Below, piece after piece: positions 15,300 to 21,433 of a stretch of 64,000 nt of DNA. The DNA is taken from the NCBI RefSeq assembly GCF_009914755.1, contig NC_060932.1; one strand, 5' to 3'. The position numbers and the translations under genes are program-made. The notes under the pieces were generated by a model. The model was not told where the DNA came from. It was given only the letters and a program-made list of their open reading frames with translations, and did not search any database. Each line of letters opens with the position of its first letter. The stretch's first letter is position 1. This stretch comes from the human T2T-CHM13v2.0 reference genome, Homo sapiens.

Positions 15300-21433
<6,134 letters not shown>

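What the first reader, a model, noticed from the sequence alone, without database searches (positions are those of the whole stretch)
20822..20824. Identical non-CpG nonsense mutation (TGG>TGA, ...TLLHC*W) in all three long L1s
Seen directly: CAC TGT TGA TGG occurs at 105-107 (minus strand), 20822-20824 and 49270-49272, while the older L1 at about 58144 keeps TGT TGG TGG. The stop falls right after the C-terminal CCHC motif and removes the last 120+ aa of ORF2p. Established: L1 retrotransposition is cis-preferential and the ORF2p C-terminal region is needed for it, so a source element with this stop is unlikely. Three independent hits at a non-CpG base are also improbable. Inference: an inactivating allele spread laterally after insertion, which would be a way for local conversion to propagate L1-killing mutations.
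Basis: partly seen in the sequence, partly recalled or inferred. Interest (0 to 1): 0.75.

Follow-up and report, generated by a model that had tools for sequence, protein, structure and literature searches.

The report
Neighbouring LINE-1 copies overwrite each other
Three broken LINE-1 jumping-gene copies in introns of human STK3 carry the same stop mutation, likely because neighbouring copies overwrote patches of each other after inserting; two of them also share a near-identical 1.1-kb stretch, which makes this a clear local case of a known process (gene conversion) and likely not a way of switching LINE-1 off.

Summary
The shared TGA is real (105-107 minus, 20822-24, 49270-72). It is ORF2p W1144*, inside the CCHC motif rather than after it. 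The three L1s are independent full-length insertions with their own target-site duplications; B is an older subfamily than A and C. Genome-wide the allele is ordinary: 263 carriers versus 12,877 intact (2.0%; neighbouring G>A controls 149 and 191), scattered, with no stop-carrying lineage on a tree. No long tract surrounds it (three-way identity 14 bp), so the stop alone proves nothing. The locus, however, shows gene conversion. Inverted copies A and C, 41 kb apart, differ at 8 of 1124 sites across 5'UTR-ORF1 versus 4.2% elsewhere, and share an ORF1 frameshift haplotype found in no other exact match genome-wide. A second rare ORF1 allele (98 carriers) sits in all three copies and a fourth neighbour. 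Outside the locus, rare-allele carriers pair within 50 kb more often than expected, and a chr1 pair shares this same stop in a ~600-bp tract. Most likely the stop spread by at least one short conversion (~80%). It probably killed nothing: each copy has three or more upstream ORF2 frameshifts. Known process, good L1 example.

The parts
1..5658 (-). Copy A, full-length L1 (6154 bp; 3' end runs about 495 bp past the window's left edge); L1PA3/4-like (subfamily label recalled, not tested)
   Evidence: TSD AAGAATTATT at 5669-5678 and just outside the window
15300..21432 (+). Copy B, full-length L1 (6133 bp), older subfamily than A and C (L1PA4/5-like, recalled)
   Evidence: TSD AGAACTAATAAATA at 15286-15299 and 21434-21447; diagnostic columns; tree
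43748..49885 (+). Copy C, full-length L1 (6138 bp), same age class as A
   Evidence: TSD AACATATTTCTG at 43730-43741 and 49888-49899
105..107 (-). ORF2 W1144* (TGA) in A
20822..20824 (+). ORF2 W1144* (TGA) in B
49270..49272 (+). ORF2 W1144* (TGA) in C
58148..58150 (+). Homologous TGG kept in an older L1 fragment
3820..4943 (-). Conversion tract in A (3' part of 5'UTR and most of ORF1); looser edge out to about 5204
   Evidence: 8 substitutions in 1124 columns versus 180 in 4265 downstream
44460..45584 (+). Partner tract in C; looser edge from about 44198
4203..4224 (-). ORF1 1-bp deletion with linked T>C in A
   Evidence: frame leaves 6FIA after GKFREK; the haplotype is in 2 of 15 deletion matches, A and C only
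45179..45200 (+). Same ORF1 deletion haplotype in C
3839..3839 (-). Rare ORF1 G>C allele (RRE>RRQ) in A
17106..17106 (+). Same allele in B (seen by alignment; an adjacent 1-bp deletion keeps it out of the exact search)
45565..45565 (+). Same allele in C
20460..20460 (+). Rare A>G shared by B and A (A at 465); 45 exact carriers genome-wide; lies in a 90-bp A-B identical run
19925..19925 (+). Rare C>T shared by B and A (A at 1018); lies in a 115-bp A-B identical run
11609..12453 (-). Two STK3 coding exons between inverted copy A and copies B and C
   Evidence: annotation supplied with the finding

Best explanation
Three independently inserted, broken L1 copies share W1144*, most likely because the stop arose once or twice by ordinary mutation and was then copied to a neighbour by short-patch non-allelic gene conversion. 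Shown: independent insertions; different subfamily rungs; no stop-carrying lineage; a 1.1-kb homogenised A-C tract carrying a shared ORF1 frameshift haplotype. Inferred: a break in one copy is repaired from a nearby copy on the same chromosome and resolved without crossover, leaving tracts from under 50 bp to over 1 kb. Inferred: A, the only inverted copy, is the likely hub, and crossovers between A and B or C would flip two STK3 coding exons, so mainly conversions would survive. Inferred: the process is neutral and blind to codon effect. Donor, direction and date of the stop's transfer are unknown.
For: A-C tract 0.71% versus 4.2% divergence; binomial P 9e-13; the lowest count in any 1124-column window over 20,000 shuffles was 16 against 8 observed. 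ORF1 deletion: 15 exact matches versus 2331 intact; deletion plus linked C only in A and C. RRQ allele, 98 versus 2252, is in A, C, B and a fourth copy about 43 kb left of the window. A-B share rare alleles across a subfamily boundary. Outside the locus, same-allele pairs within 50 kb: RRQ 6 among 95 carriers (0.28-0.46 expected), -360G 2 among 43 (0.06-0.09). L015/L016 (chr1, inverted, 17 kb apart, flanks not alignable) differ at 6 of 600 columns around this same stop versus 94 of 1163 outside. A rough model gives 84-97% for at least one conversion if the per-allele transfer probability is 1-3%, and 52% if it is 0.3%.
Against: No tract at the stop: A differs at -9, C at +6, B from A at +36. 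A and C share no other rare non-CpG allele in 1834 masked 3' columns and B-C share 1 (0.39 expected). One of the 4 A-B shared alleles (-795) is an indel-alignment artefact, leaving 3 versus 0.64 (P about 0.03, hand calculation), and some unlinked panel pairs scored as well. With an empirical cross-allele control the RRQ excess shrinks to 6 versus about 1 (P about 0.02, hand calculation). For the stop and its two controls only 4 close pairs were seen among 300 listed carriers (0 cross-allele; 0.67 uniform expectation at 30 kb). Two of three other close pairs fetched (L064/65, L066/67) show no tract. The six RRQ pairs and two -360G pairs were not fetched, so duplication is not excluded for them. 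The transfer probability is my estimate from few events.
Confidence: 0.78

Rival explanations
1. Three independent G>A mutations at a moderately mutable non-CpG site, picked out after the fact; the A-C tract is real but unrelated to the stop.
For: The allele is in 2.0% of copies, 1.4-1.8 times its neighbours. Carriers span 78-96% identity to C and are unclustered on the tree. No tract at the site. Many sites and windows are scanned.
Against: 8e-6 per site against 2e-5 to 2e-4 for paths with conversion at 1-3% transfer (ratios). A second allele (RRQ) is also shared by all three copies plus a fourth.
Confidence: 0.16
2. The stop was inherited from a source element (tolerated, or mobilised in trans) that seeded all three insertions.
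For: It is somewhat commoner than neighbouring G>A alleles. Two other elements (chr4:57.216 Mb, chr8:89.223 Mb) appear in both the stop and -360G lists, about what chance gives.
Against: 15 changes versus 15.7 shuffled, 230 of 500 shuffles as low. B is separated from A and C by several supported branches. C-domain mutations impair retrotransposition and L1 proteins act in cis (PMC2951350, passages).
Confidence: 0.02
3. Conversion acts as a host-favoured route that spreads inactivating alleles and kills active L1s.
For: Two inactivating alleles are shared here: the ORF2 stop and the ORF1 frameshift. The stop was also transferred at a chr1 pair.
Against: Shared alleles also include missense and 3'UTR changes. 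Each copy has 3-6 ORF2 frameshifts upstream. The A-C tract is far younger than the copies (0.7% versus 4.2%), so both were probably long dead.
Confidence: 0.03
4. Assembly or polishing cross-talk between paralogous L1s in the reference created the sharing.
For: Only one assembly was available, and reads could not be checked.
Against: The tract still has 8 substitutions, 5 of them at CpG, plus an indel, as expected of an aged event rather than a copy error. TSDs and flanks are intact.
Confidence: 0.01

Closest known systems
Non-allelic gene conversion between neighbouring Alu elements (Aleshin & Zhi 2010, seen only as cited in PMC6598467 and PMC8230782, passages; the paper itself is not held)
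   Same: Nearby copies share non-diagnostic mutations; mosaics cross subfamily boundaries; tracts can be very short.
   Different: Here the elements are 6-kb L1s, the range is 15-47 kb rather than about 10 kb, and one tract is at least 1.1 kb.
Conversion between L1PA3 LINEs seen in long reads (Frith & Khan, PMC5829575, passages)
   Same: One L1 tract replaced by a nearby L1's sequence; also reported beside an inversion between opposed L1PA7 copies.
   Different: That is a single polymorphic case found from reads. Here the evidence is from paralog comparison in one assembly, with several events among 3-4 copies and shared inactivating alleles.
Non-allelic conversion among LTRs on the human Y (Trombetta 2016, as cited in PMC6598467, passages)
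   Same: Mosaic, multi-donor patches of shared derived alleles.
   Different: Different element class; autosomal locus here; no population data here.
L1-mediated rearrangements by homologous recombination (TEMRs, PMC9675761, passages)
   Same: Recombination between nearby similar L1s; opposed copies give inversions.
   Different: Those are crossover outcomes; here flanks and TSDs are unrearranged, i.e. non-crossover.

Membership tests
Full-length primate L1 (L1PA) insertion | About 6 kb with 5'UTR, ORF1, ORF2, 3'UTR, A-tail and target-site duplication | tested here: met
   6154, 6133 and 6138 bp; TSDs of 10, 14 and 12 bp; ORF1p and ORF2p PDB matches for copy A, B and C by alignment to A
L1PA3/4 (A, C) and L1PA4/5 (B) subfamily labels | Diagnostic positions against subfamily consensus | not testable with these tools
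   No repeat library; relative order from the tree; names are recalled
Non-allelic gene conversion (A-C tract) | Copies are independent insertions, not a duplication | tested here: met
   Distinct TSDs and flanks; homology limited to the L1 body
Non-allelic gene conversion (A-C tract) | Bounded tract of sharply reduced divergence | tested here: met
   8 of 1124 versus 180 of 4265; no full-length panel of unlinked copies was available as a further control
Non-allelic gene conversion (A-C tract) | Shared derived alleles absent from the family at large | tested here: met
   ORF1 deletion plus linked base only in A and C among 15 deletion matches; 2331 intact
Non-allelic gene conversion (A-C tract) | Non-reciprocal transfer shown against orthologues or haplotypes | not testable with these tools
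   No ape or second human genome available
Non-allelic gene conversion (the ORF2 stop itself) | Tract of co-transferred alleles around the site | tested here: inconclusive
   Identical runs of 44, 49 and 14 bp, no second rare allele inside: compatible with a very short tract or with none
Stop-carrying L1 source lineage | Carriers form a clade | tested here: not met
   15 changes versus 15.7 shuffled on 51 copies
CpG-deamination homoplasy | Site is a CpG in the family | tested here: not met
   0 of 54 panel copies have CG at the site

The most novel reading that the evidence does not exclude
Full-length L1s within about 50 kb of each other exchange sequence often enough (roughly 1-10% of derived alleles, more over 5'UTR-ORF1) to leave a genome-wide signal: neighbouring copies share rare alleles, including stops and frameshifts, across subfamily boundaries, at several times the range reported for Alus. 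The STK3 cluster of four copies would be a conversion network centred on its one inverted member. Shared lesions and low divergence between clustered L1s would then mislead dating and source-element phylogenies.
Probability: 0.5. Interest if true: 0.6.

Novelty: new member of a known kind. Interest (0 to 1): 0.38.

Why it matters
L1 copies are widely used as independent neutral clocks (for example PMC5237266, passages) and for lineage trees. This locus shows that copies 41 kb apart can become 99.3% identical over 1.1 kb long after insertion and can share frameshifts and stops without common descent. It also marks A and B/C as recombining inverted repeats around two STK3 coding exons, a possible inversion substrate (inferred). 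The cheap test used here, clustering of rare-allele carriers, could measure L1-L1 conversion against distance. The stop itself most likely has no functional consequence.

Tried and rejected
Long tract around the stop: rejected. Stop-carrying lineage: rejected (51 of 63 projected copies used, after dropping 7 segmental-duplicate or overlapping loci, 3 short or partial loci, and 2 more under the 650-bp length filter). CpG origin: rejected. An apparent 22-bp deletion shared by B and C is a duplication private to A. The shared -795 allele is an indel artefact. 'Stops in common frame' beyond codon ~875 are frame drift in my alignment and were ignored, as was C's +1 at 48474. Bias towards inverted pairs genome-wide: not seen (7 inverted, 6 direct among the 13 same-allele pairs within 50 kb outside the locus). 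The A and T alleles at the RRE site showed no close pairs (23 and 17 carriers, about 0.02 expected): uninformative. Reciprocal exchange by inversion toggling swaps sequence and would not homogenise A and C, so it was rejected by argument. A full-length panel of unlinked L1s could not be obtained, so 5' alleles were checked only by exact counts at two sites. Literature: seven searches on L1 or TE conversion found Alu, LTR and single L1 cases but no genome-wide neighbour analysis for L1 and nothing on this locus. Subscription journals, including Aleshin & Zhi 2010, are not held and no supplements were read, so absence from print is not established.

Full report
Observation. The TGA is present in all three long L1s at the stated coordinates, and the older fragment keeps TGG at 58148-58150. 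The 50 codons before it match ORF2p 1094-1143 of a 1275-aa chain (8UW3), so it is W1144*, inside CWWDC 1143-1147 (PMC2951350, passages) and before the last cysteine of the CCHC motif. It is not a CpG site (0 of 54 panel copies).

Anatomy. A (5658 to about -495, minus), B (15300-21432) and C (43748-49885) are full-length, 6.13-6.15 kb, each with its own target-site duplication, so they are separate insertions. Identity is 96.4% for A-C and about 93% for B with either. At subfamily-diagnostic columns A and C agree against B, and a tree of 51 copies over 729 3' columns, with the site removed, separates B from A and C by several supported branches. The names L1PA3/4 and L1PA4/5 are recalled, not tested. 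All three are broken elsewhere: 5, 6 and 3 frameshifting indels upstream in ORF2 by majority-of-three (one artefact in C ignored) and ORF1 lesions.

How common is the allele? Exact 28-mer counts in the window's genome are 263 TGA, 12,877 TGG, and 149 and 191 for G>A at two neighbouring positions. The first 100 carriers listed are spread along chr1-5, and a narrower pattern lists carriers through chr11. The 30 carriers fetched range from 78 to 96% identity to C and are not clustered on the tree (15 changes, shuffled mean 15.7, 230 of 500 shuffles as low). So the allele is recurrent mutation at about 2%, not a lineage. Three hits at a named site have probability 8e-6; summed over about 6000 sites this is 0.006-0.05 per trio (hand estimate), so a scan of many windows will meet such cases by chance. 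There is no tract at the stop: identical runs are 44 bp (A-B), 49 bp (B-C) and 14 bp (A-C).

Conversion at this locus. A and C differ at 8 of 1124 columns from late 5'UTR through most of ORF1 (A 4943-3820, C 44460-45584) against 180 of 4265 downstream and 32 of 705 upstream; binomial P 9e-13, and no window in 20,000 shuffles fell below 16. Inside the tract both carry a 1-bp deletion that throws ORF1 out of frame after GKFREK. Fifteen copies genome-wide match that deletion exactly, against 2331 intact, and only A and C carry it with the linked C. Neutral decay cannot leave one fifth of two insertions six times younger than the rest, so sequence was copied between them after insertion. At 0.7%, with 5 of 8 differences at CpG, the event is probably no older than the human-chimp split (comparison value recalled).

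Further sharing. An ORF1 G>C allele (RRE>RRQ) has 98 exact carriers against 2252. It is in A and C (within the tract), in B by alignment, and in a fourth copy at chr8:99,777,273. In the 3' 2.1 kb, A and B share rare non-CpG alleles at -900, -360 and +293 relative to the stop (0.64 expected; a fourth, -795, is an artefact), plus two in the 3'UTR. The -360 allele has 45 exact carriers, two of them A and B (its denominator was not measured); -900 and -360 lie in the second and third longest A-B identical runs (115 and 90 bp). B-C share 1 and A-C 0 such alleles there, which is no excess.

Outside the locus. Same-allele carriers within 50 kb: RRQ 6 pairs among 95 (0.28-0.46 expected with a clustering factor of 1.8-3 taken from the intact-allele lists), -360G 2 among 43 (0.06-0.09). 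Against a cross-allele control of 96 other carriers, which gave 2 close pairs, both on X, the RRQ expectation is about 1, so the excess is weaker (P about 0.02, hand calculation). For the stop and its two controls there are 4 close same-allele pairs and 0 cross-allele pairs among 300 listed carriers, and one more stop pair on chr4. Of four such pairs whose DNA I held, L015/L016 (chr1, inverted, 17 kb) share a tract containing this very stop (6 of 600 differences versus 94 of 1163; flanks do not align), L062/L063 share a few scattered rare alleles, and L064/65 and L066/67 show nothing further. The RRQ and -360G pairs were not fetched, so duplications are not excluded. The RRQ allele is also unexpectedly common for a transversion (98 versus 23 and 17 for the other two bases), which I cannot explain; a minor source lineage is possible.

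Mechanism. Shown: independent insertions, a bounded homogenised tract, shared derived alleles. Inferred: homology-directed repair from a nearby paralog resolved without crossover, giving tracts from tens of bases to over 1 kb; A, the one inverted copy, takes part in most exchanges seen; crossovers between A and B or C would invert STK3 exons 11609-12453 and be selected against. For the stop, a rough model with a per-allele transfer probability of 1-3% gives 3-16% for three independent mutations, and 48% at 0.3%. I put at least one conversion at about 80%. Nothing suggests that the process favours inactivating alleles, and the copies were probably already dead.

Comparison with what is known. 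Neighbour homogenisation by non-allelic conversion is established for Alu within about 10 kb and for LTRs (PMC6598467 and PMC8230782, passages; the primary Alu paper was not held). Conversion between L1PA3 copies has been seen in long reads (PMC5829575, passages), and crossover outcomes are catalogued (PMC9675761, passages). A 2026 pangenome L1 preprint mentions gene conversion once and screens out recombinants (PMC13192797, passages). My searches (listings and abstract starts only, apart from the papers named) found no distance-resolved analysis for L1 and no mention of this locus, but the library lacks subscription journals and I read no supplements.

Verdict. Observation confirmed; interpretation partly supported. 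New member of a known kind; interest 0.38, rising to about 0.6 if the 50-kb neighbour effect holds genome-wide.

Noticed in passing
window 44127-44626: The RefSeq enhancer lies in copy C's 5'UTR and overlaps the start of the A-C tract; since A is nearly identical there, short-read signal could belong to either copy.
   Followed up: no
G000:C8:99777273 (about 43 kb left of the window): A fourth L1 (+) carries the same rare ORF1 allele as A, B and C; it did not appear in the narrower stop-allele list.
   Followed up: partly
L015/L016 (G000:C1:127.99 and 128.00 Mb): Inverted L1 pair 17 kb apart with a ~600-bp near-identical tract containing the same ORF2 stop and 17 shared rare alleles.
   Followed up: yes
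window 19509 and 47958: B and C share a T>G (0 of 19 panel copies) just after the reverse-transcriptase GATGAC (DD) codons.
   Followed up: partly
window about 904-883 (copy A): 22-bp tandem duplication in ORF2, private to A among the three copies and not seen in the panel rows printed.
   Followed up: yes
window 14552-15285 and 21450-22833: Copy B sits inside an older, more diverged L1 (about 65-70% identity to the young copies).
   Followed up: no
one search list, chr5 75-83 Mb, chr14 55-60 Mb, chrX 62-76 Mb: RRQ carriers look regionally clumped at Mb scale (27 pairs at 1-5 Mb versus 12-18 expected), and the allele is about four times commoner than the transition at that base.
   Followed up: partly
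L059/L060 (G000:C1:20.92 Mb): About 667-bp tandem repeat of an L1 3' segment with 93% identity between units.
   Followed up: no
G000:C8:89223420 (-) and 89223894 (+): Matches on opposite strands 0.5 kb apart suggest one 5'-inverted L1 that carries both the -360 allele and the stop.
   Followed up: no
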